Shown: positions 12,161-63,273, counted from the first letter of the stretch. The stretch is DNA of 64,000 nucleotides from Candidatus Cloacimonadota bacterium (GCA_963667255.1 OY762940.1:1079503-1143502), one strand, 5' to 3'. A program made the numbers and translations. The notes: a model not told the origin generated them from the letters alone.

Positions 12161-12397
12161 AATCTTTACTCTCTTCGAGCAATGAAATTTTGTGTCAATG
12201 AAAATCTGTTTGATGAAATCTTCACTTTTAATTTGACAAAAAATTATTTAATTAAATTAATCGAGCATGTTTCCGAGTTCACTATCTCGTAGCGATTATC
12301 AGAACCGCCGAATACTGAACCGTTAGGGCATAATTGGAAACGATTATACCTCCCGCATTTGGAAAGGAAACAAAACCAAATTAGGGAGGATTTTAGT

Positions 12398-12880
12398 ATG
12401 TCCAAGAAAAAAGTGTTGCTTTTGCAACCTGAGAAATGTGTTGATTGTCACAATTGCCAATTGGCGTGTTCTCTCGCTCATGAGGGCGTTTTTAGCCCCA
12501 CCAAATCTTGTATTTCCGTTTTAGCTTCCAAATTAAAATTTTCTGTACCTCTCACATGTTTGCAATGTAAAGAACCGGCTTGTGCGACCGTTTGCACTAC
12601 TGGAGCTTTGAGCAAAAACCAAGAAACAGGCAGAGTTGACTACGACAAGAGCAAATGTATAGGTTGCAGATTGTGTGTAGCTGCTTGTCCTTTTGGCAAT
12701 ATTTCCTATTCTACCGATGCGGGTAAAGTTTACAAGTGTGATACTTGCGACGGCGATCCTTCATGTGCCAAAGTTTGCCCAACAGGAGCTATCTCTTGGG
12801 TTGATGAAAATGAAGAGACTTTGGAGAGGAAAAAAGTTATTTCGGAAAAGTTGCTTCAAGCTTTTGGGATGGAGGTGTAA
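12398..12880 (+). CDS. 4Fe-4S dicluster ferredoxin-type electron-transfer subunit
   Basis: Several CxxCxxCxxxCP motifs (CVDCHNCQLAC, CLQCKEPACATVC, CIGCRLCVAACP, CDTCDGDPSCAKVCP); RBS gggagg 8 nt upstream of ATG 12398; stop 1 nt before AOR start. Confidence 0.8.
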   Translation: MSKKKVLLLQPEKCVDCHNCQLACSLAHEGVFSPTKSCISVLASKLKFSVPLTCLQCKEPACATVCTTGALSKNQETGRVDYDKSKCIGCRLCVAACPFGNISYSTDAGKVYKCDTCDGDPSCAKVCPTGAISWVDENEETLERKKVISEKLLQAFGMEV

Positions 12881-14773: not shown

Positions 14774-15226
14774 ATGGATGAAATATTATCTCGGTATAAA
14801 AAACCTTCCGATGTGATTGCGGTTCTGCAAGATACACAAGAAAAATTTTCTTATCTTTCCGAAGAAAATTTACGAAAAATCAGCCAACACTACCAAATTT
14901 CTTATGCTTATTTGCATTCCATAGTAACCTTTTACAAAGCTTTTTCGTTGGTGAAAAAGGGCAAAAATGTTATTAGGGTGTGTGATGGCACGGCTTGTCA
15001 TATAAAAGGTTCGGTCAAAATTTTGGAAGAACTTCACCGATTGCTGGGCATTAATCCTGGGCAGACAACTGCCGATGAAATGTTTTCCGTGGAAACTGTA
15101 GCTTGCCTTGGTGTGTGTGCGATTGCTCCGGTTATGCTGATAAACGACAAATATTACGGAAATTTGCAAATGGGAGAAATCAGCGGAATAGTTGAAAGCT
15201 ATAAAAAGCAGGAGTCGGAAAAATGA
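14774..15226 (+). CDS. NuoE/HoxE-like [2Fe-2S] thioredoxin-like subunit
   Basis: CDGTACH ... CLGVCAIAPV cysteine motif of NuoE family; overlaps downstream gene by ATGA. Confidence 0.8.
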   Translation: MDEILSRYKKPSDVIAVLQDTQEKFSYLSEENLRKISQHYQISYAYLHSIVTFYKAFSLVKKGKNVIRVCDGTACHIKGSVKILEELHRLLGINPGQTTADEMFSVETVACLGVCAIAPVMLINDKYYGNLQMGEISGIVESYKKQESEK

Positions 15227-16995
15227 AAACTATTTATGTATGTTACGGAACAGGTTGCAAAGCCGGTGGTGGTGGTCCTATATCCGATAAATTTGCTGCT
15301 TTGTGCCGAGATAACGAAGTGCGGGTAAAGAGAACCGGTTGCCACGGTTTGTGCCAAGAAGGTCCCTTGGTTCACATCTCTCCCGACGAGATAACTTACA
15401 CCAAAGTCAAAGTGGAAGATGTTCAGGAGATTGTTGAAAAAACGATTAGGAATAACGAGGTTGTCGAGAGATTGCTTTACATCGACAAGGCTCAAAAAAA
15501 ACGGGTAAAATCCAAAAATGATTGGTCTTTTTGTAGCAAGCAAAAACGAGTTGTTTTAAAAGAAGTGGGCGAGATTGACCCTCAAAAAATAGAAGACTAT
15601 TTGCAAGCTGGTGGCTACAAGGCACTCAAAAAAGCTTTGGAAATTGGTAGTCAACAGATTTTGCAAGAAGTAAACGATTCCGGTTTGCGAGGTAGAGGTG
15701 GTGGAGGTTTCCATACCGGTAGGAAGTGGAACTCTGTTGCTAAAGCCACAGGTGAACAAAAATTCGTTTTGTGCAACGGAGACGAGGGCGACCCGGGTGC
15801 TTTTATGGACAGGAGCATCATGGAGGGTAATCCTCATTTGGTTTTGGAAGGAATGGCTATCGCAGCTGTCGCCGTGGGAGCGAGTAGAGGCTATGTGTAT
15901 GTGCGAAACGAATATCCTATGGCAGTTGAGCATCTGCAAATGGCTATCGATAGTGCCGAGGGAAAAGGGTATTTGGGACAGAATATTTTGGGTAGCGGTT
16001 TCAATCTGAAAATCGAAATTAAGCGAGGTGCCGGTGCTTTTGTTTGTGGAGAGTCTTCGGCTCTGATGCGGTCAATTGAGGGTAAAATCGGTCAGCCCAA
16101 CGAAAAGCACATTCATGCTTCGGACAAAGGTGTGTTTGAAAGCCCAACACTTCTGAACAATGTGGAGACTTATGCCAATGTTCCTACCATAATTTTGGGT
16201 GGAGGAAAAGCTTATGCAGCAACTGGAACGAAAAAATCCCCGGGAACAAAAGTCTTTTCACTGGTCGGCAAAGTGGTAAACACTGGTCTGATAGAAGTGG
16301 AAATGGGTGTGAGCTTGCGAGAAATTATTTTTGATATCGGAGGTGGTATAAAAAACGGCAGAAAGTTCAAGGCGGTGCAAACAGGCGGTCCTTCAGGCGG
16401 TTGCCTTACCGCTGACCATCTTGATGTGAAAATCGACTTTGACACACTCATCGAATACGGCTCAATGATGGGCTCAGGTGGAATGATTATCATGGACGAG
16501 TTTGACTGTATGGTGGAGGTTGCTCGCTATTTCACGGGATTTCTCATTGAAGAGTCTTGTGGCAGATGCACTCCATGCAGAGACGGACTTTTGCAGGTTT
16601 ACAAAATTTTGGACAGGATTAGCAAAGGCGAAGGCAAAATGGAAGATTTGGACACTTTGGAAGAGTTCGGACAATACTTGGAATCTTCGGCCTTGTGTGG
16701 CTTGGGCAAATCCGCAGCCAATCCTTTTTTATCAACTTTAAAATATTTCCGCCACGAATTTGTGGAACACATTGAACAAAAATTTTGCCGAGCCGGAGTT
16801 TGTAAGGAACTTTCGACTTTTGTAATTGACGAAGAAAAGTGCAAGAGTTGCGGAATGTGTGCCAAGGTTTGTTCGTTTGGAGCAATCCAAGTTGACGGCA
16901 AAAAATACAGCATCGACCAGTCAAAATGTATGAAATGCAGGGCTTGTTTGGAAGCTTGTAAATTCGGAGCTGTGAGCATAGCAGGGAGGCAATAA
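15223..16995 (+). CDS. NuoF-like NAD(H)-binding flavoprotein subunit with extra N-terminal 2Fe-2S and C-terminal 2x[4Fe-4S] domains
   Basis: GLRGRGGGGFHTGRKW FMN/NADH motif, ESCGRCTPCRDG 4Fe-4S motif, C-terminal CKSCGMCAKVC / CMKCRACLEACKFGA. Confidence 0.85.
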   Translation: MKTIYVCYGTGCKAGGGGPISDKFAALCRDNEVRVKRTGCHGLCQEGPLVHISPDEITYTKVKVEDVQEIVEKTIRNNEVVERLLYIDKAQKKRVKSKNDWSFCSKQKRVVLKEVGEIDPQKIEDYLQAGGYKALKKALEIGSQQILQEVNDSGLRGRGGGGFHTGRKWNSVAKATGEQKFVLCNGDEGDPGAFMDRSIMEGNPHLVLEGMAIAAVAVGASRGYVYVRNEYPMAVEHLQMAIDSAEGKGYLGQNILGSGFNLKIEIKRGAGAFVCGESSALMRSIEGKIGQPNEKHIHASDKGVFESPTLLNNVETYANVPTIILGGGKAYAATGTKKSPGTKVFSLVGKVVNTGLIEVEMGVSLREIIFDIGGGIKNGRKFKAVQTGGPSGGCLTADHLDVKIDFDTLIEYGSMMGSGGMIIMDEFDCMVEVARYFTGFLIEESCGRCTPCRDGLLQVYKILDRISKGEGKMEDLDTLEEFGQYLESSALCGLGKSAANPFLSTLKYFRHEFVEHIEQKFCRAGVCKELSTFVIDEEKCKSCGMCAKVCSFGAIQVDGKKYSIDQSKCMKCRACLEACKFGAVSIAGRQ

Positions 16996-17741
16996 TGAAA
17001 ATTTTTATAAACGACAAAGAATGTTCCGCTTGCAAAGGGCAAACTTTATTGCAAGTTGCTCTGGATAACGGCTTTTATATCCCGACTTTGTGCCACAATA
17101 AAGAGCTTGGAAACTATGCGGGCTGTAGATTGTGTGTGGCTGAACTTCGCGAGGGAGATTGGAGCAAGTTGGTCGCTTCCTGTGAGTTTCCGGTCAAAGA
17201 TGGACAAACTTTTTATTTGGATACAGAGAATGTTAAGAAATCGCGAGATTTGTCGGCAAGTCTGCTTTTGGCAAGGTCTCCGGAGTCCAAAAAAGTTTTA
17301 GATGAGATTATGCGAAAAGATGTGGAGATGAGATTTGAGCCGATGACACCGCATTTGGAAGGTTGTATTCTTTGCGGAAAGTGTTATAGGGCTTGTCAAA
17401 AATTGGGAACGGGAGCAATTTCCACCATCAATAGAGGTCACGAAATCACCGTGGAAACTCCGTATGAACAAGGGAATCCCGATTGTATTGGCTGTCTTGC
17501 TTGTGCCGAGGCTTGTCCTACAGGTGCGATTAAGGTTTTCAGGTCGAAAACTCAAGTTGGTATTTGGCATCTTACTCACGAATTGCTTGCTTGTCCGATG
17601 TGTGGCAAGAGACATATCACGCAAAAATCTTTGGATTTCTTTAGTAAAAAAACAGGAATCCCAAGCGAAGAATTGATTATTTGTCCCGATTGTCGCCAGA
17701 AAAAAACCTCAATGGATCTTCTGTCAGGAATTTCCAGATGA
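16995..17741 (+). CDS. NuoG N-terminal-like / HydA-N-like 2Fe-2S plus 4Fe-4S ferredoxin subunit
   Basis: Plant-type 2Fe-2S pattern (CHNKELGNYAGCRLCVAE), His-ligated cluster region, CIGCLACAEACPTGA. Confidence 0.6.
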   Translation: MKIFINDKECSACKGQTLLQVALDNGFYIPTLCHNKELGNYAGCRLCVAELREGDWSKLVASCEFPVKDGQTFYLDTENVKKSRDLSASLLLARSPESKKVLDEIMRKDVEMRFEPMTPHLEGCILCGKCYRACQKLGTGAISTINRGHEITVETPYEQGNPDCIGCLACAEACPTGAIKVFRSKTQVGIWHLTHELLACPMCGKRHITQKSLDFFSKKTGIPSEELIICPDCRQKKTSMDLLSGISR

Positions 17742-20925: not shown

Positions 20926-21696
20926 GTGAAAAAAGTTTTTATTGCTTTGGGTGCGATAATCATCTTTATGATTGTTTTTCCGATTATAAAGATTTTTTGG
21001 GGAATTGACCTTACTATTCTTAGCGATACTTTGAGAGATTCTGTGGTTTTTTCGGCAGTTTTTACTTCTTTGGAATGTTCGCTCTATGCCACACTTGCAG
21101 GATTTCTTCTGGGAATTCCGCTTGCTTACATTATCGCCAGACACAATTTTTATGGTAAAGAACTGGTTTCTTCAATTATAAATATCCCTATCGTCGTGCC
21201 ACATTCGGCGGCAGGGATAGCTCTTTTGTCGGCTTTTGCTTCTCATACTTTTTTGGGGAAAGGGCTTGCCGCACTTGGACTTACCATCATCGATACCAAG
21301 CTTGGTATAAGTTTGGGGATGTTTTTTTTGAGTGTGCCTTTTCTCATCAATCAAAGTATTGGGGGGTTTCTAAGCTATGACGAGAGAATAGAAAAATCTG
21401 CTAGAGTTTTAGGAGCTGGTTTTAGCAGAACTTTTTTTACCATCAGTTTGCCACTTGCTCGGCACGGCATCATCAAAGGTTTCATCATGATGTGGGCAAG
21501 AGGTATTTCGGAGTTCGGAGCTGTGGTCATTTTGGCTTATCATCCGCTTACAGCTTCCGTTTTGATTTTTGAAAGATTTGGAGCTTTCGGCTTGAGATAT
21601 TCCAAGCCGATTGCTTCTTTATTAATTTTAATCTGCCTGTTCATTTTTATGGTAGTGCAATTGATTTCCAATGTTAAAAATAAATCAGATAACTAA
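20926..21696 (+). CDS. ABC transporter permease (WtpB/ModB-like)
   Basis: Polytopic membrane protein with EAA-like loop region typical of ABC importer permeases. Confidence 0.7.
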   Translation: MKKVFIALGAIIIFMIVFPIIKIFWGIDLTILSDTLRDSVVFSAVFTSLECSLYATLAGFLLGIPLAYIIARHNFYGKELVSSIINIPIVVPHSAAGIALLSAFASHTFLGKGLAALGLTIIDTKLGISLGMFFLSVPFLINQSIGGFLSYDERIEKSARVLGAGFSRTFFTISLPLARHGIIKGFIMMWARGISEFGAVVILAYHPLTASVLIFERFGAFGLRYSKPIASLLILICLFIFMVVQLISNVKNKSDN

Positions 21697-22699
21697 AAAA
21701 TTTTCCCAATTTACTCTAAACGAGATAAATTTTACCATTAATAAGGGCGAATGCACCGCAATTTTGGGTCCGTCAGGTTCGGGCAAAACTATTTTGATGG
21801 AGACGATTGTCGGCATTCACAAGCAAACTTCGGGGCAACTATTCCTAAACGGCAAAGAGATTAGCCATACCAAGCCCGAAAATCGCGATATTTCGCTTTT
21901 GTATCAAAATTATATGCTTTTCCCACATCTCAATGTTTACGAAAATATAGCTTTCCCGCTAAAATTACGAAAAATTCCTGAAATTCCGCAAAAGATAAGC
22001 AAAATTGCTCATTTATTGAAGATTGAACATCTTTTGAAAAGGTCGGTTCATAACCTTTCTGGTGGAGAAAAACAGCGGGTCGCTCTTGCCAGAGCCATTA
22101 TTTTTGAACCGCAAGTTCTTCTTTTGGACGAGCCAACTTCGGCGATTGACACTCATATGAAGCGAAAAGTTCGCAAGCTAATTCGGGAAATTCACAAAAG
22201 TCTCAATCTGACTATTCTCTTGGTCACTCATTCCATTGAGGAGGCTATCTATTTGGCGGATTCTTTTGTCTTCCTAAAAGATGGTCAGCAATTACAACAA
22301 GGCAAAAAGTTTGAAGTTTTCAACAATCCCCAAAATCGTTATATCGCCAATTTTCTCGGCTATGACAATGTTTTTGAAGGAGAGGTTGAAGACGGCAAAT
22401 TTGCTATCAAAAACACCAATCTCAAAATATCTTTTTTTAAAGAAGAGATTCCCAAGTGTATTCATGTTTCGCCCGACAATATCATCATTTCCAAGGAAAA
22501 GCCCGAGAGTTCGGCAGTGAATGTTTTTGAAGGAACATTGCAAGATTTTGCTTTCAAAGGCAGTTTCTATCAATTGTTTTTCGACATCGGAGTGGAAATT
22601 TTGGTAAATATCACAGATGCCTCATTCGAAAATCTCCAACCAAAACTCGGCACCAAATTTTATCTATCATTCAAAGAAAGAGGAGTGAAGGGGTTTTAG
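21671..22699 (+). CDS. ABC transporter ATP-binding protein with C-terminal TOBE-like domain (WtpC/ModC-like)
   Basis: Walker A GPSGSGKT, signature LSGGEKQR, Walker B LLLDEPTSAID, about 110 aa C-terminal extension. Confidence 0.75.
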   Translation: MLKINQITKKFSQFTLNEINFTINKGECTAILGPSGSGKTILMETIVGIHKQTSGQLFLNGKEISHTKPENRDISLLYQNYMLFPHLNVYENIAFPLKLRKIPEIPQKISKIAHLLKIEHLLKRSVHNLSGGEKQRVALARAIIFEPQVLLLDEPTSAIDTHMKRKVRKLIREIHKSLNLTILLVTHSIEEAIYLADSFVFLKDGQQLQQGKKFEVFNNPQNRYIANFLGYDNVFEGEVEDGKFAIKNTNLKISFFKEEIPKCIHVSPDNIIISKEKPESSAVNVFEGTLQDFAFKGSFYQLFFDIGVEILVNITDASFENLQPKLGTKFYLSFKERGVKGF

Positions 22700-22708
22700 G
22701 AAATAAAA

Positions 22709-22716
22709 TAATTTAA
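22709..22716. repeat. Target-site duplication (left copy) TAATTTAA
   Basis: Identical 8-mer directly abuts the outer ends of both inverted repeats. Confidence 0.65.
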
Positions 22717-22733
22717 GGTTCAAGATAACTTGA
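22717..22733. repeat. IS left terminal inverted repeat GGTTCAAGATAACTTGA
   Basis: Perfect 17-bp reverse complement of 23437-23453. Confidence 0.8.
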
Positions 22734-22763
22734 CAAGTGAATTATACTAGTTAAGTTGTTGAT

Positions 22764-23450
22764 ATGCCAATAAGAAACAAGTACGTAAAAAACTCCAAAA
22801 TTTCTGAAGAAAAATTTAGAGAAATAATTAAGTTTTTTTCTTTGGATATTGAGGCTAGTAAAATAGCACTTTTGACCAAAATTAGTAGAAAAACAGTTAA
22901 CAATTATTTACTTAAAATTAGAGAGAGAATTGCTGAATTTTGTTGTGAGGATTCTCATCTTTCTGGAATAATTGAAGTTGATGAATCTTACTTTGGAGCG
23001 AAAAGAGTTAAGGGGAAACGAGGACGAGGTGCTGGAGGTAAAATTAAAGTTTTCTGATTGCTCAAAAGAGGCGACAAAGTTTACACTCAAATGGTTGATA
23101 ATTGTAGCAGAAAGACATTACAAGCGATAATAAAAGAAAGGATAGAAAAGGGTAGTGAAATTCACTCTGATGGATGGAAAGCTTATAATGGATTGGTTGA
23201 TTTAGGATACCAAAAACACTATAGAGTTGACCATTCGAGCAATGAATTTGCCAATAAAAATGGACATATTAATGGGATTGAGAACTTTTGGGGAATAGCA
23301 AAATTGAGACTAACAAAATTTAAAGGAATTCATAAAAATATGTTCTATTTACACTTAAAAGAATGTGAATTTAGGTTTAATCATAGAAAGCAAAATTTAT
23401 ATAAAATTTTGCTAAAAATGTTCCGAAATAATCCGCTCAAGTTATCTTGA
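22764..23450 (+). pseudogene. IS1595-family (ISXO2-like) DDE transposase interrupted by a single in-frame TGA (23055-23057) at a conserved Gly position
   Basis: Translations ...IIEVDESYFGAKRVKGKRGRGAGGKIKVF*LLKRGDKVYTQ...SEIHSDGWKAYNGL...HYRVDHS...NGIENFWG... match the family pattern ETYFGGKRKGKRGRGA-GK-VFG-LER-G-V; stop replaces the G of VFG. Confidence 0.7.
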
Positions 23451-23453
23451 ACC
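23437..23453. repeat. IS right terminal inverted repeat
   Basis: Reverse complement equals GGTTCAAGATAACTTGA. Confidence 0.8.
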
Positions 23454-23461
23454 TAATTTAA
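23454..23461. repeat. Target-site duplication (right copy) TAATTTAA
   Basis: Identical to 22709-22716. Confidence 0.65.
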
Positions 23462-23471
23462 ATATTTTGAA

Positions 23472-23500
23472 TTGACAGATTTTAATTTAAAGTGTTTATA
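23472..23500 (+). promoter_or_regulatory. Sigma70-like promoter candidate for the HerA-NurA-MTase operon
   Basis: TTGACA, 17-nt spacer ending in TG, then TTTATA; about 37 nt upstream of the ATG at 23538, with gagg RBS in between. Confidence 0.3.
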
Positions 23501-23537
23501 GGTATTTGTTTTTTCCAAAATTTTAATTGAGGTTTAG

Positions 23538-25781
23538 ATGAGTATAGAACAAAGTATAATTTCTAGGCGAGAAAGTGATAAGAAAGTTGAAACCCAACAA
23601 TGGTTTCAAAAACTTATACAAACAAGCGAATATGTTGGTGATTTGTATTCTATCAACTATGAAACCGCAAGAGTAATAATTCATGATTTCTATAGAGAGA
23701 AAGTCGGAGGAATTCCAAGCTTAAGTTTTTTAATTGCCTCAAGAGTTGACCCCAATAATTCAGAAATTGATTTTAAAACAGAGGATGCATCATTTATTCT
23801 TTTAAGAGTAATGGATGCTATAGCGCTTCCGCAGGATAGAGAGGCAGAAAGAATTAGAGTTGAAACAGCACAAAGAATAAGTGGTGAAACTGAAAAAAAT
23901 TGGGATGAAGCAGGTTCAATGGATTTAAGAACAAAAAATCTGTTAAGTTTTGCTGGTGTTCAGTGCAGAATAATTGGAACATTTTATCTCGAAGAAAATG
24001 GAGAAAATGGAGAAGCACCACTTAATTTAAAATTTGGTAGTGATATTTCAAATTATTATCCAAACAGAGGATTAAAAGTTTATAAACCAAACGGGAAGGC
24101 TCTTGAGTTAATAGTAAATTATTCTGATCCTTCAAATATTCAAGCACACATTGAAAAATATGGAAACACAGAAAATGTAAAATTGGGTTTTGTAAGATAT
24201 GCTTCAACAAATAGAAAATATCAACAAATTAGTGATGTCCCTGTTTATATTTATCCAGCAGACCTTCTATCTCAAAAATCTGCCTTGTTTGGAATGACAA
24301 GGACAGGAAAATCCAATACGACTAAAATAATTGCAAAATCTGTTTTTGAATTACGAAATGCACAACGGTCTGGAGAAAATCCATTAAGAATTGGACAAAT
24401 AATTTTTGATCCCAACGGTGAATATGCCAATGAAAATGTTCAAGATAGGGACGGTAGCGGTAATCCAAATGCATTAAAAAATATTTGGCGAAAAGACGAA
24501 ACTTTAAGAAATATTGCTGATAAGCTGAAACAACAATATATTCAAGAAACAGAAATCGAAGAAAAGAAAAGATTATGGAATGAAATAAAATCATTGGTTG
24601 AAACAGAGGTGGTTACATATGGTATTTTACCACATCCACTAGACCCATTTCGTAGATTAATGAAAATAAACTTTTATGAAGAAGACAATCTTCAAATAGG
24701 TAAAGAAATCATTGATTTTAAAATTGCGGAGCAGTCAGCTCAGTATATTAAAAATTTTCGACAAGTTGTTTTCAAAAGACCAGTAGAAGATGAATACGAG
24801 AATGAGGTTGAATTTAATGGACAATTAAGGCGTTTTGAGAGAAGAGTTCTTGTTTATTGTGCATTGCTAAATAAAGCAGGTTTTAATCCACCGTTTCGAA
24901 CAGTTAATATTTCAAGAATGTTTAATGCTGACCTAAGAAATGCTATGATTAACTATTCTGAAAAAAAATTTACACGTAAACAAGGATTAATAAATGCAGC
25001 GGGTCAAACTCTGTCACAAACAAATGTAACCTGGGATAGTCTTGCACCTGCTTTTGAAGGTTTGTTCCATTTCCTTTCAACTGCTGATTACAATACATTC
25101 AACCAAGATTACATAAATAATCATCGTGATGATGAGAATGAGGATGCTACAGGAGAAGGTTGGGCTGAAGCAGAACTTGAAAGTTTGTTGGAAATGTTTA
25201 ATTATTCAAAAGCTATTAATCTAATTGGTGGTGTAAATACACAACATACAACATCAATAAGAACAGATTACGCCGAAGATATTTATAATGATTTAACTGA
25301 AGGGAAACTTGTTATTATTGACCAATCAAGTGGTGAGCCAGAACTAAACAAGTCTTCAGCAAATAGAATAATGTGGCATATTTTTAAAGCTAACCAAAGT
25401 GCATTTCGAGAGGGTGAGAAATTAATTCCCGAAATATTGGTTTATGTGGAGGAAGCTCATAATATATTACCAGCTGGTAATGATTTAGATTTAACCGATG
25501 TTTGGGTTAGGACAGCAAAGGAAGGTTCAAAATATAGAATTGGGATGGTTTACGCAACCCAAGAAGTAAGTAGTATTCAAAGAAATATTTTAAAAAATAC
25601 AGCGAATTGGTTTATAAGCCATTTAAACAATACTGATGAAACCAAAGAACTATGCAAGTACTATGATTTTGAAGACTTTGAGCCATCAATAAGGCGAGCA
25701 CAGGATAAGGGTTTTTTAAGAGTTAAAACTTTAAGCAATCTGTTTGTAATTCCAGTTCAGGTTGACAAATTTGAAGTCTAA
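23538..25781 (+). CDS. HerA/DUF87-like (FtsK-HerA superfamily) ATPase with about 250-aa N-terminal domain of unknown type
   Basis: Walker A GMTRTGKS (about aa 252), Walker B of hhhh-EEAH type ILVYVEEAH (about aa 637), downstream ATQ motif RIGMVYATQEV typical of HerA-family ATPases. Confidence 0.6.
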   Translation: MSIEQSIISRRESDKKVETQQWFQKLIQTSEYVGDLYSINYETARVIIHDFYREKVGGIPSLSFLIASRVDPNNSEIDFKTEDASFILLRVMDAIALPQDREAERIRVETAQRISGETEKNWDEAGSMDLRTKNLLSFAGVQCRIIGTFYLEENGENGEAPLNLKFGSDISNYYPNRGLKVYKPNGKALELIVNYSDPSNIQAHIEKYGNTENVKLGFVRYASTNRKYQQISDVPVYIYPADLLSQKSALFGMTRTGKSNTTKIIAKSVFELRNAQRSGENPLRIGQIIFDPNGEYANENVQDRDGSGNPNALKNIWRKDETLRNIADKLKQQYIQETEIEEKKRLWNEIKSLVETEVVTYGILPHPLDPFRRLMKINFYEEDNLQIGKEIIDFKIAEQSAQYIKNFRQVVFKRPVEDEYENEVEFNGQLRRFERRVLVYCALLNKAGFNPPFRTVNISRMFNADLRNAMINYSEKKFTRKQGLINAAGQTLSQTNVTWDSLAPAFEGLFHFLSTADYNTFNQDYINNHRDDENEDATGEGWAEAELESLLEMFNYSKAINLIGGVNTQHTTSIRTDYAEDIYNDLTEGKLVIIDQSSGEPELNKSSANRIMWHIFKANQSAFREGEKLIPEILVYVEEAHNILPAGNDLDLTDVWVRTAKEGSKYRIGMVYATQEVSSIQRNILKNTANWFISHLNNTDETKELCKYYDFEDFEPSIRRAQDKGFLRVKTLSNLFVIPVQVDKFEV

Positions 25782-25792
25782 ATTGAGTTAAT

Positions 25793-27160
25793 ATGGGGTT
25801 TGAAGGAGAATTTGCCAGTTATGAGCCATTAAGGCGAATGCTTGATAGTGATAAAGTTAAATCACTACAAGACAGACTGAAAATACGAAAACAAGAAGAA
25901 GAAACAGATACTTTCACTGGCTCAATTGTTAAAAAGTCAGACTTGACTGAAAGCTCAATACAACCTGATTTAGTTTTAGCAATTGATGGAAGCAATTTGG
26001 CGGCTAAAGCTGAAAGTGGATTTCCGGGTGCTGAATTTGGATATATTACAATAGCTTCTGTTTTAATAGATTTAAAACTTATTGATGATTTAGAAAAGAA
26101 ACAGTTTATTGACCCCAAAAAGGTTAGAGAAACAGAAAAAGCATCGACAATAGAAAGTGTCTTCCCCGGTTGCAATGTAATTTTGGACACAGAAAAAAAT
26201 GCAAATGCTTCACTTCGAAGAGCATTATTTGAAGAATTAAAATGTAACACAATATTTGCTAACGGTGGAGAAACATTATTGGATACTTATGAATACCTCT
26301 TCAGAATAAAGAGAGAGCATTTCTCTGAAAGCCGTCTTCCAAGAAGCCCTATTGATGGTATTGATAAAGAAATGACTTATGGATACGATGAATATCCTTG
26401 TCCTCATTCAGGAGAGCCATTATATTCAACTGATGCTTTGCGTTTACATGAATTAATGAATCCTGGTGGTAGTAATGGTGAAATGTTTGGGCAAATAATG
26501 TCAACTCTTGAAAAGGTATGGTTGGTTCATATACTCAGAGCATTTGAACAAAAAGAATGGTTATCAACCCTTCGGAGAGTAGCATTTATTATGGATGGAC
26601 CATTAGCTGTATTTAGTACTTCATCTTGGTTGACAAAAGTTATTAATTATGAATTAAATAGGCTAAATGAATTGCAGAAAGCAGTTAACGGTCAGGATTT
26701 ATTAATTATCGGTATTGAAAAATCAGGAACATTCGTAAATCATTTCGAAGAAATTGATACGACTAAAGATGGAGTTACAGATAAATTTCCAAAACAATCA
26801 GCATTACTGCTTGACGATGGCTATATAAAAAGAAATATTATTTTTTCTGAAAGCATAAAACCATATGGTCAAGACACTTATTTTGGAAGAAAAATATTTT
26901 ATAAAACTGCTTCTGGACAAAAAATAGTTCCAGTAATTGCATGTTATAATGACCAACAAAGAAATACCTCAACAGCAAATCCAAATCAATTTTCAAGGCT
27001 TTCAGATGTTATGAATTTGCTTGATAAATTGGTTTCAAGTAGATATCCAAATTCCGTTTCTCCTTTAGTATCTGCTCATGCAGAAGCAGCAATTCCTTTA
27101 AATTTAGGTAAACGGATATTTGAGGATATTGCAAGAGAAATAAGAGAAAAATCAAATTGA
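25793..27160 (+). CDS. NurA-like nuclease
   Basis: N-terminal LVLAIDGS motif, central IIGIEKSG motif, C-terminal His (SAHAEAA) consistent with NurA D-E-D-H layout; 11-nt gap to upstream gene. Confidence 0.5.
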   Translation: MGFEGEFASYEPLRRMLDSDKVKSLQDRLKIRKQEEETDTFTGSIVKKSDLTESSIQPDLVLAIDGSNLAAKAESGFPGAEFGYITIASVLIDLKLIDDLEKKQFIDPKKVRETEKASTIESVFPGCNVILDTEKNANASLRRALFEELKCNTIFANGGETLLDTYEYLFRIKREHFSESRLPRSPIDGIDKEMTYGYDEYPCPHSGEPLYSTDALRLHELMNPGGSNGEMFGQIMSTLEKVWLVHILRAFEQKEWLSTLRRVAFIMDGPLAVFSTSSWLTKVINYELNRLNELQKAVNGQDLLIIGIEKSGTFVNHFEEIDTTKDGVTDKFPKQSALLLDDGYIKRNIIFSESIKPYGQDTYFGRKIFYKTASGQKIVPVIACYNDQQRNTSTANPNQFSRLSDVMNLLDKLVSSRYPNSVSPLVSAHAEAAIPLNLGKRIFEDIAREIREKSN

Positions 27161-28287
27161 TGATTACAAAGGAAAAGATATTAAAAGGTTATAAAACCGC
27201 GGAGGCTCGATGGGCAAGATTTGGTCCATATTATGCCATGTTTCCTTTGGATTTTGCATTTGAGGTTGTTGAGAAATACTCAAAAAAAGGTGATTACATA
27301 CTTGACCCTTTTGCAGGTAGATGTAGCAGTATCTATGCTGGTGGTGTGCTTGGTCGAGTTAGCTTAGGTATTGAAATTAATCCCGTAGGCTGGCTCTTTG
27401 GGAAAGTAAAATTAGAACCTGCAGATAAGGAAGATGTAATTGACCGTTTACTTGAAATTTATGGTAAGCGAAATTATTATAGATGCTCAACTAAAAAATT
27501 ACCAGAATTTTATAGGATATGTTATAGCGATGAAGTCCTAAAATTCCTATTAGCAGCGAGAGCAAATCTTGACTGGATAAATAATGACATTGATGCAACT
27601 CTTATGTCAATTCTTTTGGTTTACTTACATGGTAAATTAGGAGAATGTTTGTCAAATCAAATGAGAATGACAAAGTCAATGGGAATGAACTATTCTGTTG
27701 AATGGTGGAAAAAAAATGGACTAACAAAACCACCTGAAATTAATCCCTTTGAATTCATTCTTAAAAAGATTGAATGGAGATATGAAAAAGGGACACCAAA
27801 TGTTACTGAAAGTGCAGTTGTATTTGGTGATAGTTCTAATCAATTAATCAACATTTCAGAGAGAGCCATTCAAAATGATATTAAATTTTCGCTTCTGTTT
27901 ACATCTCCACCATATTATTCAATCACAGATTACCATGCAGACCAGTGGCTGAGATTATGGCTGTTAGGAGGTTCAGAAAATCCGCAATCATTAAAAGACA
28001 AACATAAAGGAAGATTTGTAAACAAAGTTGATTACTACAATTTACTTGATACTGTATTTGAACTTAGTTCACGAATGATGGACGAAAGGAGTACAATTTA
28101 TGTCAGGACAGACAAGCGTGAATTTACTTTTAATTCTACTTTAGAGATTTTAAACAAGCATTTTCCAAATTATAAAACAAAGATTATTGAAAAGCCTTTA
28201 ACTAAAGACACCAAGACTCAGACAAAATTATTTGGTGACAAATCAATGAAGCCTGGAGAAGTTGATATAATATTACAAATAGAATAA
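27157..28287 (+). CDS. DNA methyltransferase (N6-adenine or N4-cytosine type)
   Basis: AdoMet motif I ILDPFAGRCSS followed by GRVSLGIEINP; catalytic motif IV FTSPPYY about 200 aa downstream; start overlaps upstream stop (ATGA). Confidence 0.6.
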   Translation: MMITKEKILKGYKTAEARWARFGPYYAMFPLDFAFEVVEKYSKKGDYILDPFAGRCSSIYAGGVLGRVSLGIEINPVGWLFGKVKLEPADKEDVIDRLLEIYGKRNYYRCSTKKLPEFYRICYSDEVLKFLLAARANLDWINNDIDATLMSILLVYLHGKLGECLSNQMRMTKSMGMNYSVEWWKKNGLTKPPEINPFEFILKKIEWRYEKGTPNVTESAVVFGDSSNQLINISERAIQNDIKFSLLFTSPPYYSITDYHADQWLRLWLLGGSENPQSLKDKHKGRFVNKVDYYNLLDTVFELSSRMMDERSTIYVRTDKREFTFNSTLEILNKHFPNYKTKIIEKPLTKDTKTQTKLFGDKSMKPGEVDIILQIE

Positions 28288-28324
28288 TTAGCTGTTTTTT
28301 AAGAAATAGTTGTATAATTCTTTT

Positions 28325-28987
28325 TCACTCCCCAACCACTCTCATCTCATAATTTCCCAAATCAGCGAGCAAGATTTTATTTAATAGTTTCGGCTTTCTC
28401 CAAACCACATTTATAACTTCGTCGGCTATCAAACTGCCAATAAACATCACGGATTGCGGGCAGATAGCACGGGAAATAGCATTGTCATCTTTTCTTTTGT
28501 ATAGCTCGTCCAAGCTTAAAAAATCGCTTTCTCCGTGAAAAGTGGCGACTTGCCCGTATTTTTTTTCTACCGCTCCATGCACCAAGAAATTTTGTTTGCC
28601 GACCAATTTTTGAATTTGTTTTTTGGTTGCAAAGCCGTCCACACAATCCACAAAGCAATCAGATGAGTGGATTTCGCTTGTTTTGTTTATATCTTGCAAA
28701 TGGCAATAAATTTGGCAGTCGGGATTTATTTGGCTCAATTTGGCAAAAGCAGTTTCCGTTTTGAGTTTGCCGATATCTTGGCTATCATACAAAAGCTGTC
28801 TGCCAATGTCGGAATCATTGATTTTGCCGTTGTCGTATAGATGGAAATTTTGCACTCCAGCACGAATTAAAACTTGCAAAACACTGCAACCAAGTCCGCC
28901 CAAGCCGAAAATGCTAATCTTACAATTTTTCAAAATTTCTTGTTTTTCTTTGCCCCAGAGCATCTCGTTTCTACTGAAAAAATTCAT
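28325..28987 (-). CDS. ThiF/MoeB-family E1-like adenylyltransferase
   Basis: Rossmann motif IFGLGGLGCSV near N-terminus, about 220 aa; plausible MoaD partner of the W/Mo cofactor locus. Confidence 0.65.
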   Translation of the reverse strand: MNFFSRNEMLWGKEKQEILKNCKISIFGLGGLGCSVLQVLIRAGVQNFHLYDNGKINDSDIGRQLLYDSQDIGKLKTETAFAKLSQINPDCQIYCHLQDINKTSEIHSSDCFVDCVDGFATKKQIQKLVGKQNFLVHGAVEKKYGQVATFHGESDFLSLDELYKRKDDNAISRAICPQSVMFIGSLIADEVINVVWRKPKLLNKILLADLGNYEMRVVGE

Positions 28988-31450: not shown

Positions 31451-31540
31451 TGGCGGAGATGTAGGGATTCGAACCCTAGATACAGGTAACCGTATACACG
31501 CTTTCCAAGCGTGCTCCTTCAACCACTCGGACACATCTCC
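31451..31540 (-). tRNA. tRNA-Ser (anticodon GGA), with encoded CCA
   Basis: Manual fold: acceptor GGAGATG/CATCTCC, anticodon stem CACGC/GCGTG with loop TTGGAAA, long variable arm, TTCGAAT T-loop. Confidence 0.85.
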
Positions 31541-31958: not shown

Positions 31959-32035
31959 TGGCACGCCCGTAGGGATTCGAACCCCAAACCTTCTGATCCG
32001 TAGTCAGATGCTCTATCCAATTGAGCCACGGGCGC
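31959..32035 (-). tRNA. tRNA-Arg (anticodon ACG), with encoded CCA
   Basis: Manual fold: acceptor GCGCCCG, anticodon stem TCTGA/TCAGA with loop CTACGGA, GGTTCGAAT T-loop. Confidence 0.85.
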
Positions 32036-37962: not shown

Positions 37963-38225
37963 CGAGTTCCGATAATAAGGTTCCTGTACAACTTAATATT
38001 TTTGGCATTTCTTACAAATTTATGGTGGATGCAGGGAGTGAAGACAAATTTAAAATTTGTGCAGAAAAATTAAATAAACTGATAAGTCAAGAAAGTGCGA
38101 AGAGGGGAGACGCGATGTCTCAAATCAAGATTTTAGTTTTGCTTTGCTTGGATTTTTTGTCTAATCAGATAGATAGTGAAGAAGTGATTATCAGAATAGA
38201 AAATTTATTAGATAAAAGCCTGTAA
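37959..38225 (+). CDS. zapA: Cell division protein ZapA-like
   Basis: PVQLNIFGISYKF N-terminal motif and about 88-aa helical tail. Confidence 0.55.
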   Translation: MTSSDNKVPVQLNIFGISYKFMVDAGSEDKFKICAEKLNKLISQESAKRGDAMSQIKILVLLCLDFLSNQIDSEEVIIRIENLLDKSL

Positions 38226-38414
38226 TATTTGTGATAGTTGGCTAATTATATCATTTGAACTAATTATAATTAGGGATGTAAGCTTCTACTTTTGGCTTGT
38301 GCCGAGATTGTACTCGGATTTGCGAAGTAGGTTTAGATGAATATCCCACCTTGAATTTAAGTTCAAGATAAGCTTAGCTACACGGTATTATGGGTTTTTG
38401 TTTTTTTTAAGGAG

Positions 38415-59641: not shown

Positions 59642-60292
59642 ATGAAAGCTATCTTGATATCGCTTGTTGAGAGCATCTTTGCTAATCCTGCAAACTATGG
59701 AATATTTCTTCTTTGTTGTATAGTTTTAACCGCTATTGTAACTATTAAGATTAAAGGGTTTTTGAATAAATGCAAAAATTCTAACAAAAAGTTTGGTAAT
59801 ATAGATAAAAGCTTTGTTAATGTTAATGAAAAGATGGATTCTTTTGGTGGGAAGCTTGATGCTATAGGTGCAAGTTTGATGAATTTATGCACTGCATTAC
59901 ACGAAAAAAAAGTGGTTGTAAAGAATTATACTCCCCAAGCTTTAATTCAGTCAAGTAGCCCCATTAATTTAACAGAAAACGGTATTAAATTTGTAGAAAA
60001 AAGCGGGGCTAAAACTGCTTATTTGTCTATGAAGCAAGAGTTAACCGATAAAGTCCTTAGCAATGCTCCTTACAAAAATTATTTAGACTTTGAACAAGCG
60101 TGTTTAAGGGCAATTGATAACACTCAAAGAGAAGAATTGAACGAGCCTAAAAACTACATATATGAAAATCCTGTTACTAATGGTATTGCTGTTACTATCT
60201 ATGACATTGTTAAAATGATAGGAATTATGCTCAGAAATGACATCTTAAAAGAACATAAAGATATTGTTACCAGTTCGTTAAAAAAGAAATAA
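59642..60292 (+). CDS. Hypothetical membrane-anchored protein
   Basis: N-terminal hydrophobic helix (GIFLLCCIVLTAIVTI); no recognised catalytic motif; directly upstream of Panacea-domain gene. Confidence 0.35.
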   Translation: MKAILISLVESIFANPANYGIFLLCCIVLTAIVTIKIKGFLNKCKNSNKKFGNIDKSFVNVNEKMDSFGGKLDAIGASLMNLCTALHEKKVVVKNYTPQALIQSSSPINLTENGIKFVEKSGAKTAYLSMKQELTDKVLSNAPYKNYLDFEQACLRAIDNTQREELNEPKNYIYENPVTNGIAVTIYDIVKMIGIMLRNDILKEHKDIVTSSLKKK

Positions 60293-60306
60293 TTTTGGAG
60301 TAAGTT

Positions 60307-60780
60307 ATGGGAAAGAAAATTGATGCTGTAGCTATTGCTAAATGGTTTTTGTGCAATATTGATTTGGCAAGTGGAGATTTAATAACTCATTTAAAGTTGC
60401 AAAAATTAGTTTACTATGCTCAAGCGTGGTATTTGGCTCTCAACGACAAAGAGTTGTTTCCCGAAGAAATAGAAGCGTGGGCTCACGGTCCGGTTGTTCC
60501 TTGTATTTTCCAAGCATTTAAAGGGAATGGATTTGACCCTATTCCTTGCCCAAGTGATTGCCCTGTTTTCGATAAGGAAATAACCTCACATCTTAGCGAA
60601 ATACTGGATGTCTATGGTATTTATGAAGCAAAATATTTGGAAAGATTAACTCATCAAGAAGCTCCTTGGCTGCTTGCAAGAGGGAATTTACCTATTGAGG
60701 TTTCTTCTCACAATATTATTTCCAAAGAGAGTATGAAAGATTTTTACAAAAAAATGAACGAAGAAAACAAGAGTGCATAG
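60307..60780 (+). CDS. Panacea-domain (DUF4065, SocA/GepA-like) protein, putative antitoxin
   Basis: LKLQKLVYYAQAWYLA ... WAHGPVVP motifs characteristic of DUF4065. Confidence 0.55.
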   Translation: MGKKIDAVAIAKWFLCNIDLASGDLITHLKLQKLVYYAQAWYLALNDKELFPEEIEAWAHGPVVPCIFQAFKGNGFDPIPCPSDCPVFDKEITSHLSEILDVYGIYEAKYLERLTHQEAPWLLARGNLPIEVSSHNIISKESMKDFYKKMNEENKSA

Positions 60781-63248: not shown

Positions 63249-63273
63249 TAAAATAATCAAAAGAATGTTGTTA

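What the first reader, a model, noticed from the sequence alone, without database searches (positions are those of the whole stretch)
22700..28330. About 5.6-kb accessory insertion splitting a tungsten/molybdenum cofactor locus
Upstream lie ferredoxin, aor, nuoEFG-like, moaD, mobB-like, moeA and wtpABC-like genes; downstream on the opposite strand is a MoeB/ThiF-like gene that is a logical MoaD partner. The IS plus HerA-NurA-MTase block sits exactly between them, implying horizontal acquisition into a metabolic operon neighbourhood. The cassette looks somewhat more AT-rich than its flanks by eye, but this was not computed.
Basis: inference. Interest (0 to 1): 0.5.

Follow-up and report, generated by a model that had tools for sequence, protein, structure and literature searches.

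The report
Foreign defence cassette in tungsten locus
A 5.6-kb piece of foreign DNA (a dead insertion sequence plus a three-gene HerA-NurA-methyltransferase cassette that looks like a restriction-modification-type immune system) sits between two converging tungsten/molybdenum-cofactor genes, at a spot where related genomes carry nothing or quite different cargo.

Summary
The observation and its interpretation both hold. Window 22700-28329 is missing from related genomes. In two relatives, wtpC and the MoeB/ThiF-like gene overlap at their stop codons. Two closer relatives carry other cargo with the same junctions: a type II R-M system in one, a 5.2-kb mixed set of genes in the other. The three cassette genes have GC3 of 0.18-0.25, lower than all 51 other genes in the window. 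Their DNA (23518-28287) is 90.5% identical to a Draconibacterium (Bacteroidota) genome. The host, a Cloacimonadota-like lineage, shares only 78-85% identity with its own nearest relatives in the flanks.

The IS1595 copy (22717-23453) has its own 8-bp target duplication and an in-frame TGA. It is a separate, decaying insertion, not the vehicle that delivered the cassette.

The HerA-NurA-MTase trio keeps its gene order in unrelated contexts across Bacteroidota, Acidobacteriota and a haloarchaeal plasmid. Among solved structures, TdpA and TdpB, the restriction pair of the phosphorothioate system TdpABC, are its closest matches. I infer a methylation-coupled relative of that system; this has not been tested. 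I found no open-access description of this trio.

The insertion is ordinary island biology. The cargo is moderately interesting.

The parts
21671..22699 (+). wtpC (tungstate/molybdate ABC ATPase). Core gene on the left flank; the insertion starts immediately after its TAG stop.
   Evidence: Pfam ABC_tran + TOBE_2. Homologues are named WtpC. Homology to relatives ends at 22697-22700.
22700..28329 (.). The whole strain-specific segment (5,630 bp) between the convergent wtpC and thiF-like genes.
   Evidence: No counterpart in L007, L095, L009 or L010. Low GC and GC3.
22709..22716 (.). Left copy of the 8-bp target-site duplication TAATTTAA of the IS.
   Evidence: Read directly from the sequence; identical to 23454-23461.
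22717..23453 (+). IS1595-family insertion sequence, 737 bp, with perfect 17-bp terminal inverted repeats GGTTCAAGATAACTTGA.
   Evidence: Inverted repeats. Pfam DDE_Tnp_IS1595 and NCBIfam NF033547 on both ORFs. Single copy among all sequence held.
22764..23450 (+). IS1595 transposase reading frame, interrupted by an in-frame TGA at 23055-23057. It is a probable pseudogene.
   Evidence: The two ORFs are contiguous in frame. The TGA aligns with a GGN glycine codon in 63 of 64 metagenomic relatives. The host uses TGA as a stop.
23454..23461 (.). Right copy of the target-site duplication TAATTTAA.
23518..28287 (+). Conserved three-gene unit (4,770 bp). This is the stretch shared with other genomes: it runs from 20 nt upstream of the herA ATG to the MTase stop codon.
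   Evidence: 90.5% nucleotide identity over 4,773 aligned columns to L011 (Draconibacterium). The same start point appears against L012.
23538..25781 (+). HerA/FtsK-type ATPase (747 aa), TdpA-like. Walker A is GMTRTGKS (252-259) and Walker B is VYVEEAH (635-641). The middle region, roughly aa 320-670, is mosaic between homologues.
   Evidence: Pfam DUF87. Best PDB sequence hit is TdpA 8wet_A, E 2.3e-14. The AF2 model (pLDDT 77) has its six best Foldseek matches in TdpA chains, E about 3e-14, TMt 0.55-0.64. Motifs are invariant in 55 homologues. Mosaicism.
25793..27160 (+). NurA-family RNase-H-fold nuclease (455 aa), TdpB-like. Invariant residues are D65, D214, D268 and K310.
   Evidence: Pfam NurA, E 1.7e-31. 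The AF2 model (pLDDT 94, pTM 0.92) best matches TdpB 8wfd_G (E 1.3e-7, TMt 0.58), followed by NurA from D. radiodurans and S. solfataricus. Invariant residues in 79 diverse homologues.
27160..28287 (+). DNA methyltransferase (375 aa from the ATG at 27160, which overlaps the nurA stop as TGATG). Motif I is DPFAGRCSS; motif IV, TSPPY, lies about 200 aa downstream.
   Evidence: Pfam N6_N4_Mtase. PADLOC MTase_II, E 4e-17. Both motifs are invariant in six orthologues. Start-codon overlap.
28325..28987 (-). MoeB/ThiF-family adenylyltransferase. Core gene on the right flank; homology to relatives resumes at 28330, inside its last codons.
   Evidence: Pfam ThiF, E 1.8e-39. The best NCBIfam model is the MoeB subfamily, but the score is below its cut-off. 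It lies next to wtpC in every relative examined.

Best explanation
The segment 22700-28329 is horizontally acquired DNA at a recombination-tolerant hotspot: the junction of the convergent 3' ends of wtpC and a MoeB/ThiF-like gene, in a small (about 1.59 Mb) Cloacimonadota-like genome. It records at least two separate events.

First event: arrival of a compact herA-nurA-MTase operon (23518-28287). This operon circulates among distant phyla as a self-contained unit.

Second event: transposition of an IS1595 element into the AT-rich spacer upstream of herA. This made an 8-bp duplication. The transposase has since been knocked out by a GGA-to-TGA nonsense change.

Inferred mechanism of the cargo, not shown here: it acts as an ATP-dependent, restriction-modification-like immune system. 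The methyltransferase (SPPY motif, so m4C is likely but m6A remains possible) marks host DNA. The HerA hexamer loads on DNA and feeds it into a NurA dimer, which degrades it. The modification would block loading or translocation on self DNA. This is what I recall being reported for phosphorothioate in TdpABC, whose TdpA and TdpB are the closest solved relatives of these two proteins.

The cassette has no recombinase and no flanking repeats. It probably entered, and is exchanged between strains, by recombination in the conserved flanking genes. That step is also inferred.
For: Insertion:
- Empty sites in L009 and L010, with overlapping stop codons.
- Same junctions but different cargo in L007 and L095, whose flanks are 94-97% identical to each other.
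- The L095 cargo is MTase, ICEA family (NlaIII-like endonuclease by my recollection) and Dam-like MTase, which I read as a type II R-M system.
- GC3 of the three genes is below all 51 other genes in the window.
- 90.5% nucleotide identity (proteins 95/96/92%) to a Draconibacterium genome, while host flanks are only 78-85% identical to the nearest relatives.
- Host PheS best matches named Cloacimonadota proteins, at 58-62%.
- Another genome of the host clade (L012) carries a diverged trio at a different locus, between IleRS and a permease.

IS as a separate event:
- TAATTTAA on both sides of a 737-bp element with 17-bp inverted repeats.
- The TGA replaces a glycine codon conserved in 63 of 64 relatives.

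Cargo as a unit:
- Same gene order in all seven contexts examined where NurA is at least 57% identical or orthologous: window, L001, L002, L003/L004, L011, L012/L013 and a Halorarius plasmid.
- All three haloarchaeal proteins are homologous to the window's (HerA 31%, E 2e-94; NurA 28%; MTase 26%, E 6e-18).
- Neighbours include an integrase, a resolvase and a TmtA defence gene (L001), an HNH type II-like nuclease (L002) and a toxin-antitoxin pair (L003).
- A distant HerA-NurA pair with an unrelated MTase lies between the integrase and excisionase of a Vibrio prophage.
- In Draconibacterium and in L012 the trio is also compositionally foreign.

Mechanism by analogy:
- TdpA is the best sequence and fold match for HerA, and TdpB is the best fold match for NurA.
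- The ATPase, nuclease and MTase motifs are all conserved.
- tdpABC is described as a phosphorothioate R-M-like system whose modification needs only tdpC (PMC12914056).
Against: - No experiment or methylome supports a defence function here.
- PADLOC-DB (2023) and NCBIfam have no system-level or equivalog model for this trio.
- Similarity to TdpA and TdpB is remote: 14-16% identity, TM 0.45-0.64.
- The HerA model has only moderate confidence (pLDDT 77).
- Nothing in the sequences shows how methylation would be sensed. NurA-HerA complexes are otherwise end-dependent and not sequence-specific.
- The MTases of the orthologues show no obviously hypervariable target-recognition region.
- A Tolypothrix plasmid has HerA-NurA with an exonuclease and no MTase, so the MTase is not universal across the wider family.
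- The entry mechanism is unknown, because no att-like repeats exist.
- Draconibacterium is not shown to be the donor. The trio sits in a low-GC island there too.
- The TdpAB mechanism is cited partly from my memory, because the primary paper is not held.
Confidence: 0.75

Rival explanations
1. The trio is a DNA-repair module (HerA-NurA end resection, as proposed in archaea and Deinococcus) that happens to travel with an orphan methyltransferase. It is not an immune system.
For: Pfam and NCBI name the nuclease 'DNA double-strand break repair nuclease NurA'. D. radiodurans and archaeal NurA and HerA are also significant fold matches.
Against: - No mre11 or rad50 genes lie nearby.
- Distribution is sporadic and spans phyla and domains, with foreign composition in every genome examined.
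- The trio sits in variable hotspots, on plasmids and in a prophage moron position.
- The tight, translationally coupled link to an MTase is conserved from Bacteroidota to Halobacteria.
- The same chromosomal site holds a type II R-M system in a sister strain.
- The closest solved relatives are the defence pair TdpAB, ahead of the repair complexes.
- Even the archaeal complex is now argued to act in defence (PMC12977600).
Confidence: 0.12
2. The IS1595 element delivered the cassette, as a composite or one-ended transposition unit, so that IS plus trio is one mobile element.
For: The IS is directly adjacent, 84 bp upstream of herA, and shares the low GC.
Against: - The 8-bp duplication flanks the 737-bp IS alone.
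- Only one copy of the IS exists in all sequence held.
- No IS accompanies the trio in L001, L002, L003, L011 or L012.
- Homology to other trios starts 64 nt beyond the IS.
- No matching repeat is present at the right end of the cassette.
Confidence: 0.04
3. The three genes are ancestral at this position and were deleted or replaced in the relatives.
For: Two of the four related genomes that hold the locus also carry DNA at this site, so some insertion may predate the split between the window lineage and the L007/L095 lineage.
Against: - Both outgroup genomes have overlapping stop codons, with no scar.
- GC3 is below that of every other gene in the window.
- Nucleotide identity to a Bacteroidota genome is 90.5%, exceeding the identity of host core genes to their own relatives.
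- The cargos of L007 and L095 share no homology with the trio.
Confidence: 0.03
4. The segment is an assembly chimera that joins Bacteroidota DNA into this genome.
For: The source genomes are metagenome assemblies. A Draconibacterium genome carrying the trio co-occurs with a relative of the host in one sample, ERZ21878363.
Against: - The segment lies precisely between two syntenic genes, and host sequence continues on both sides.
- It is 90%, not about 100%, identical to the Draconibacterium copy.
- It contains an IS with an intact target duplication.
- The exact HerA and NurA proteins are on record on a 1,587,896-bp contig, the same contig as the exact WtpC and PheS.
Confidence: 0.02

Closest known systems
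TdpABC phosphorothioate-based restriction-modification-like system (TdpA HerA-like ATPase, TdpB nuclease, TdpC modification enzyme; PDB 8wet and 8wfd)
   Same: It is a three-gene, hypercompact layout: a HerA-type ATPase, a NurA-fold nuclease and a single modification enzyme. TdpA is the best PDB sequence hit (E 2.3e-14) and the best fold hit for the window HerA. TdpB is the best fold hit for the window NurA.
   Different: The modification gene here is an N6_N4-family DNA methyltransferase, not the phosphorothioate-forming TdpC. Identity to TdpA and TdpB is only 14-16%. HerA is about 160 aa longer, with a mosaic helical insert between the Walker motifs. Tdp is reported from extremophilic bacteria (PMC12914056), whereas this trio occurs in mesophile-type Bacteroidota, Acidobacteriota, Cloacimonadota-like bacteria and a haloarchaeon.
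Canonical HerA-NurA complexes (Sulfolobus, Thermococcus, Deinococcus)
   Same: Pfam DUF87 and NurA domains, adjacent co-directional genes, and conserved Walker and RNase-H-like catalytic residues.
   Different: There is no Mre11/Rad50 context. Distribution is mobile and sporadic. The link to an MTase is obligate within this subfamily. Fold matches to the canonical complexes are weaker than to TdpAB.
HerA-partnered anti-phage systems (Sir2-HerA, DUF4297-HerA/Nezha) and MADS (mad8)
   Same: A HerA-family ATPase is coupled to an effector, in mobile defence contexts. PADLOC HerA and mad8 models give weak hits.
   Different: The effector here is NurA, not Sir2 or DUF4297. NCBIfam HerA_antiphage scores are 27-32 bits against cut-offs of 800-850. 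MADS is an eight-gene operon with mad6-8 mandatory (bioRxiv 10.1101/2023.03.30.534895), and only the ATPase part of mad8 matches.
Defence or integration hotspots between conserved core genes (strain-variable R-M 'islets')
   Same: Fixed junctions between two core genes, alternative cargos in sister strains (one a type II R-M system), empty sites in outgroups, and low-GC cargo.
   Different: No tRNA, integrase or att repeats are present. The site is the zero-length junction of two convergent genes of a tungsten/Moco locus, in a reduced genome of about 1.6 Mb.
IS1595 family insertion sequences
   Same: The ISXO2-like DDE domain, terminal inverted repeats and an 8-bp target duplication.
   Different: The transposase is broken by an in-frame TGA at a conserved glycine. 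The element is small (737 bp) and is the only copy seen.

Membership tests
Horizontally acquired genomic islet at a hotspot | Absent from the orthologous site in related genomes | tested here: met
   L009 and L010 have wtpC and thiF with overlapping stop codons. L007 and L095 carry other cargo at the same junctions.
Horizontally acquired genomic islet at a hotspot | Composition differs from the host genome | tested here: met
   GC3 is 0.18-0.25 against a mean of 0.395 and a minimum of 0.276 for 51 other genes.
Horizontally acquired genomic islet at a hotspot | Closer to sequences of unrelated taxa than host genes are to the host's own relatives | tested here: met
   90.5% nucleotide identity to a Draconibacterium genome, against 78-85% for the flanks versus L007 and L095.
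Horizontally acquired genomic islet at a hotspot | Flanking direct repeats, a tRNA target or an integrase (the classical island signature) | tested here: not met
   No repeats beyond chance at the junctions. No integrase in the segment. The nearest tRNAs lie at 31.4-32.0 kb.
IS1595 family | DDE_Tnp_IS1595 (ISXO2-like) transposase domain | tested here: met
   Pfam PF12762 and NCBIfam NF033547 match both halves, at contiguous profile positions.
IS1595 family | Terminal inverted repeats and an 8-bp target-site duplication | tested here: met
   Perfect 17-bp inverted repeats, with TAATTTAA on both sides.
IS1595 family | Intact transposase (an autonomous element) | tested here: not met
   An in-frame TGA at 23055-23057 replaces the Gly codon found in 63 of 64 relatives. 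The host uses TGA as a stop.
TdpABC | TdpA-type HerA/FtsK ATPase | tested here: inconclusive
   TdpA is the best PDB sequence hit (E 2.3e-14, C-terminal 170 aa only) and the best fold hit (TMt 0.55-0.64). Identity is only 15-16% and the model pLDDT is 77.
TdpABC | TdpB-type nuclease partner | tested here: inconclusive
   TdpB (8wfd_G) is the best fold match: E 1.3e-7, probability 1.0, TMq 0.47, TMt 0.58, 14% identity. No sequence-level PDB hit was found.
TdpABC | TdpC phosphorothioate-forming modification gene | tested here: not met
   The third gene is an N6_N4 DNA methyltransferase with DPF-G and SPPY motifs. The cassette has no other ORF.
Classical type II restriction-modification | DNA MTase with SAM-binding and catalytic (D/N/S)PP(Y/F) motifs | tested here: met
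   DPFAGRCSS and TSPPY are invariant in six orthologues and present in the haloarchaeal homologue.
Classical type II restriction-modification | A stand-alone sequence-specific endonuclease (PD-(D/E)XK, HNH, GIY-YIG or PLD) | tested here: not met
   The only nuclease is a NurA RNase-H-fold protein paired with an ATPase.
Canonical HerA-NurA repair operon | HerA and NurA domains with intact catalytic motifs | tested here: met
Canonical HerA-NurA repair operon | Association with mre11/rad50, or vertical inheritance as a housekeeping gene pair | tested here: not met
   The neighbours are wtpC and thiF. The pair is absent from four relatives, and sits at another locus in a fifth.
Sir2-HerA / DUF4297-HerA / MADS | The cognate partner genes (Sir2, DUF4297, or mad1-7) | tested here: not met
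   None is present. HerA_antiphage NCBIfam scores are far below their cut-offs.
Methylation-dependent self/non-self discrimination by the trio | A trio-specific methylated motif, and restriction of unmethylated DNA | not testable with these tools
   This needs methylome data or experiments.

The most novel reading that the evidence does not exclude
The herA-nurA-MTase trio is a so-far undescribed class of ATP-dependent restriction-modification system that spans Bacteria and Archaea. It would be the methylation counterpart of the phosphorothioate system TdpABC. A base methyl mark, not a backbone sulfur, would stop a translocating HerA-NurA degradation machine on self DNA. The mosaic helical insert in HerA would be the element that reads the mark or the target.
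Probability: 0.45. Interest if true: 0.6.

Novelty: new variant of a known kind. Interest (0 to 1): 0.45.

Why it matters
As a genome feature it is a clean example of how a reduced, uncultured genome swaps immune cargo. The swap happens at a fixed junction between two metabolic genes and breaks no operon. Sister strains whose flanks are 94-97% identical hold different cargo there: a type II R-M system in one, a mixed 5.2-kb gene set in the other.

The cargo is the more valuable part. HerA-NurA has long been assigned to DNA end resection, and recent structural work questions that. A compact, widely transferred HerA-NurA operon welded to a methyltransferase would give a directly testable defence role for this machine. 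It would also extend the TdpAB principle, in which a modification blocks a translocating nuclease, from phosphorothioate to ordinary DNA methylation. It is small enough (4.8 kb) to clone and test.

Tried and rejected
- The exact-protein look-up for the window's ThiF and WtpC found no record.
- A genome-contig scan with ThiF returned only two distant Oscillospiraceae hits and no relatives of the host. The relatives came instead from WtpC homologues.
- I searched for direct or inverted repeats bounding the cassette and found nothing beyond chance.
- The promoter and terminator scans gave counts no higher than shuffled sequence. There was no terminator-like site between the MTase and thiF.
- An exact-pattern scan of metagenomes for the IS region around the TGA gave no match. 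A protein-based scan then gave 80 relatives.
- I considered that the TGA reflects a genetic-code-25 donor, where TGA encodes Gly. This is not excluded, but a GGA-to-TGA nonsense change is simpler. GGA is the gene's main Gly codon (10 of 16), no relative has TGA there, and the host uses TGA as a stop.
- The viral-contig scan with NurA found no relatives. The alignment A2 was too diverse to use for such a scan.
- Literature searches for a HerA-NurA-methyltransferase system found no description. The primary TdpABC paper is not held.
- I considered MADS, Sir2-HerA and Nezha membership and rejected all three.
- I considered Draconibacterium as the donor and did not adopt it, because the trio is in a low-GC island there too.
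- The look-up of a distant NurA representative landed on a 1.6-kb contig with no context.

Full report
**1. What is at the coordinates**

The order is:
- a 4Fe-4S ferredoxin (12359-12880)
- aldehyde:ferredoxin oxidoreductase (to 14699)
- NuoE-, NuoF- and NuoG-N-terminal-like genes
- MoaD/ThiS
- MobB (minus strand)
- MoeA
- WtpA, WtpB and WtpC (21671-22699)
- two in-frame IS1595 transposase ORFs (22764-23057 and 23058-23450)
- a 747-aa DUF87/HerA ATPase (23538-25781)
- a 455-aa NurA nuclease (25793-27160)
- an N6_N4-family DNA methyltransferase (27157/27160-28287)
- on the opposite strand, a ThiF/MoeB-family gene (28325-28987)
- two PFK genes, ACPS, GNAT, infC, rplT and pheST.

A Moco/tungsten riboswitch (RF01055, 56.5 bits) lies at 12259-12385, in front of the ferredoxin-AOR genes. 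This fits the description of a tungsten/molybdenum-cofactor neighbourhood.

**2. Composition**

GC in 1-kb windows is 0.31-0.34 from 23 to 28 kb, against 0.35-0.44 on either side. The signal sits at third codon positions. GC3 is 0.19 (HerA), 0.18 (NurA), 0.25 (MTase) and 0.19/0.27 (the two IS ORFs). The 51 other genes of the window average 0.395 (sd 0.053), and none is below 0.276.

**3. Related genomes**

WtpC homologues led to closed genomes of about 1.55 Mb from the same lineage. Named PheS homologues of the host are all Candidatus Cloacimonadota, at 58-62% identity, so the host is a Cloacimonadota-like lineage.

- In L009 and L010 (WtpC 69% and 68% identical), wtpC is followed directly by the convergent ThiF-like gene, and the two stop codons overlap by 4 nt. 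These are the empty sites.
- In L007 (WtpC 87% identical), a different 5.24-kb cargo occupies the site: aldose epimerase, SnoaL, GNAT, an FAD-dependent enzyme and small ORFs.
- In L095, a 2.6-kb cassette occupies it: MTase, then an ICEA-family gene (homologous to the NlaIII endonuclease, from my own recollection), then a Dam-like MTase. I read this as a type II R-M system. Its GC3 is 0.17-0.21. The flanks of L095 are 94-97% identical to those of L007.

blastn places the loss and return of homology at 22697-22700 and 28330 for both L007 and L095. The L007 cargo has no homologue in the window.

So the zero-length junction of two convergent core genes has been filled by at least three different cargos in this small clade, two of them methylation-based.

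**4. Origin of the cassette**

Window 23518-28287 is 90.5% identical over 4,773 aligned columns to an 'uncultured Draconibacterium sp.' genome (L011). Protein identities are 95%, 96% and 92%. By contrast, the host's own flanking genes are only 78-85% identical to the nearest relatives. The shared stretch begins 20 nt before the herA ATG and ends at the MTase stop codon.

A further genome of the host clade (L012; PheS 84% identical) carries a diverged trio at a different locus, between IleRS and a permease. There its GC3 is 0.15-0.19 while the neighbouring genes are mostly at 0.5-0.67.

In Draconibacterium the trio also sits in a low-GC island. I therefore treat both genomes as recipients from a shared mobile pool, and do not name a donor.

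**5. The insertion sequence**

The element spans 22717-23453 (737 bp). It has perfect 17-bp inverted repeats and is flanked by TAATTTAA on both sides. This is the 8-bp duplication I recall as typical of IS1595-family elements. It shows that the IS transposed on its own into the spacer between wtpC and herA.

The IS is the only copy in the window and in all fetched loci. None of the other trios has an IS beside it.

Its transposase is cut by an in-frame TGA at 23055-23057. In 63 of 64 metagenomic relatives the aligned codon is GGN, the Gly of the VFG motif. The host uses TGA as a stop, and GGA is this gene's main Gly codon. A GGA-to-TGA nonsense mutation is the simplest reading.

After the IS is removed, the two junctions of the cassette share no repeat beyond chance.

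**6. What the cargo is**

The order HerA-NurA-MTase recurs in:
- Pontibacter (next to an integrase, a resolvase and a TmtA-type defence gene)
- an unnamed metagenome contig (directly after an HNH type II-like nuclease)
- Pyrinomonadaceae (Acidobacteriota), next to an RHH/PemK toxin-antitoxin pair
- Draconibacterium
- L012.

A plasmid of the haloarchaeon Halorarius halobius has the same three genes in the same order. All three are homologous to the window's: HerA 31% over the full length (E 2e-94), NurA 28%, MTase 26% (E 6e-18).

A Vibrio prophage has a distant HerA-NurA pair with an unrelated MTase, between its integrase and excisionase. A Tolypothrix plasmid has HerA-NurA with an exonuclease instead of an MTase.

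The NurA subfamily is modest in size: 627 clusters at 50% identity, among 1.84 billion representatives.

Catalytic features are conserved:
- NurA residues D65, D214, D268 and K310 are invariant in 79 diverse homologues.
- HerA Walker A (GMTRTGKS) and Walker B (VYVEEAH) are invariant in 55 homologues.
- MTase motifs DPFAGRCSS and TSPPY are invariant in six orthologues.

The genes are tightly packed. There are 11 nt between herA and nurA, and nurA and the MTase gene overlap as TGATG.

**7. Closest known system**

No curated NCBIfam equivalog and no PADLOC system model fits the trio. Among solved structures, the HerA protein's best sequence hit is TdpA (8wet_A, E 2.3e-14).

An AlphaFold model of NurA (pLDDT 94, pTM 0.92) matches TdpB in the TdpAB-DNA complex best (8wfd_G, E 1.3e-7, TMt 0.58). 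NurA from D. radiodurans and S. solfataricus rank behind it.

The HerA model (pLDDT 77) has TdpA chains as its six best matches (E about 3e-14, TMt 0.55-0.64). HerA from Sir2-HerA, DUF4297-HerA, T. kodakarensis and Sulfolobus follow at about 1e-10.

tdpABC is described as a phosphorothioate R-M-like system in which tdpC alone makes the modification (PMC12914056). The primary paper (An et al., Nat Chem Biol 2025; cited in PMC12345140) is not held. From memory, it reports that the phosphorothioate mark inhibits TdpAB translocation and nuclease action on self DNA.

The window's trio has the same three-part logic, with a methyltransferase in place of TdpC. It is not a member of TdpABC, because that defining gene is absent. 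I infer that it works in a similar way.

The T. kodakarensis study independently argues that HerA-NurA degrades both strands and may act in defence (PMC12977600). Four full-text searches found no paper describing a HerA-NurA-methyltransferase system.

**8. An open detail**

HerA is mosaic. Between the window and L012 the termini are 87-100% identical, yet residues 397-553 are only 22-42% identical. This region lies in a helical insert between the Walker motifs. It could be the part that reads the target or the mark, or it could be a target of phage anti-defence proteins. The MTase shows no comparably swapped block, so coupling between the two is not demonstrated.

**9. Verdict**

- The IS is a later, independent and now defective insertion.
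- No operon is split, because the site is a convergent gene junction.
- The site is a recurrent cargo hotspot.

Confidence differs between the two halves. I put the insertion at about 0.95. I put the assignment of the cargo to a methylation-coupled, TdpAB-like defence system at about 0.6, because it rests on context, conservation and remote structural similarity, not on experiment.

Noticed in passing
window 12259-12385 (+): A Moco/tungsten riboswitch (Rfam RF01055, 56.5 bits, full-length match) lies directly upstream of the ferredoxin-AOR genes. The aldehyde oxidoreductase operon therefore appears to be cofactor-regulated.
   Followed up: no
window 23055-23057: The in-frame TGA in the IS1595 transposase falls exactly on a glycine codon (GGN) conserved in 63 of 64 metagenomic relatives. 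A GGA-to-TGA nonsense change is most likely. Origin in an organism that reads TGA as Gly (genetic code 25) is not excluded.
   Followed up: partly
window 14787-17589 versus L007 5871-5921: The closest closed relative (L007) lacks the three nuoEFG-like genes between AOR and moaD, and has a 71-aa ORF there instead. L095, which is 94-97% identical to L007 in the flanks, keeps them. This is a second strain-level indel in the same locus.
   Followed up: partly
window 24500-25550 (HerA aa ~320-670): The HerA middle region is mosaic between homologues: 22-42% identity to L012 at aa 397-553, while both termini are 87-100% identical. This suggests domain swapping by recombination inside the gene.
   Followed up: partly
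window 59642-61204: A second patch of low GC3 (0.28-0.30). It contains a SocA/Panacea antitoxin-domain gene (60307-60780) that overlaps a 143-aa ORF with no family match (60773-61204). This is probably a PanA-type toxin-antitoxin pair and another small accessory insert.
   Followed up: partly
L095 11110-13586: A sister strain carries a compact type II R-M system at the same wtpC|thiF junction: an N6_N4 MTase, an ICEA-family gene (NlaIII-like endonuclease by my recollection) and a Dam-like MTase, with GC3 of 0.17-0.21.
   Followed up: yes
L011 (ERZ21878363 ctg6992c) and L010 (ERZ21878363 ctg6955c): The Draconibacterium genome with the most similar trio and one of the host's relatives (which has an empty site) come from the same sample. 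The two lineages therefore co-occur in at least one habitat.
   Followed up: no
L002 9223-9996: In one metagenomic contig an HNH protein ends 5 nt before herA. It matches PADLOC model PDLC04132 at E 1e-87. It may be a fourth component in some variants of the trio.
   Followed up: no
window 38214-38400, 62830-63251, 31451-31540, 31959-32035: 6S RNA, RNase P RNA (bacterial class A), tRNA-Ser(GGA) and tRNA-Arg(ACG). These are ordinary housekeeping RNAs, and none lies next to the insertion.
   Followed up: no
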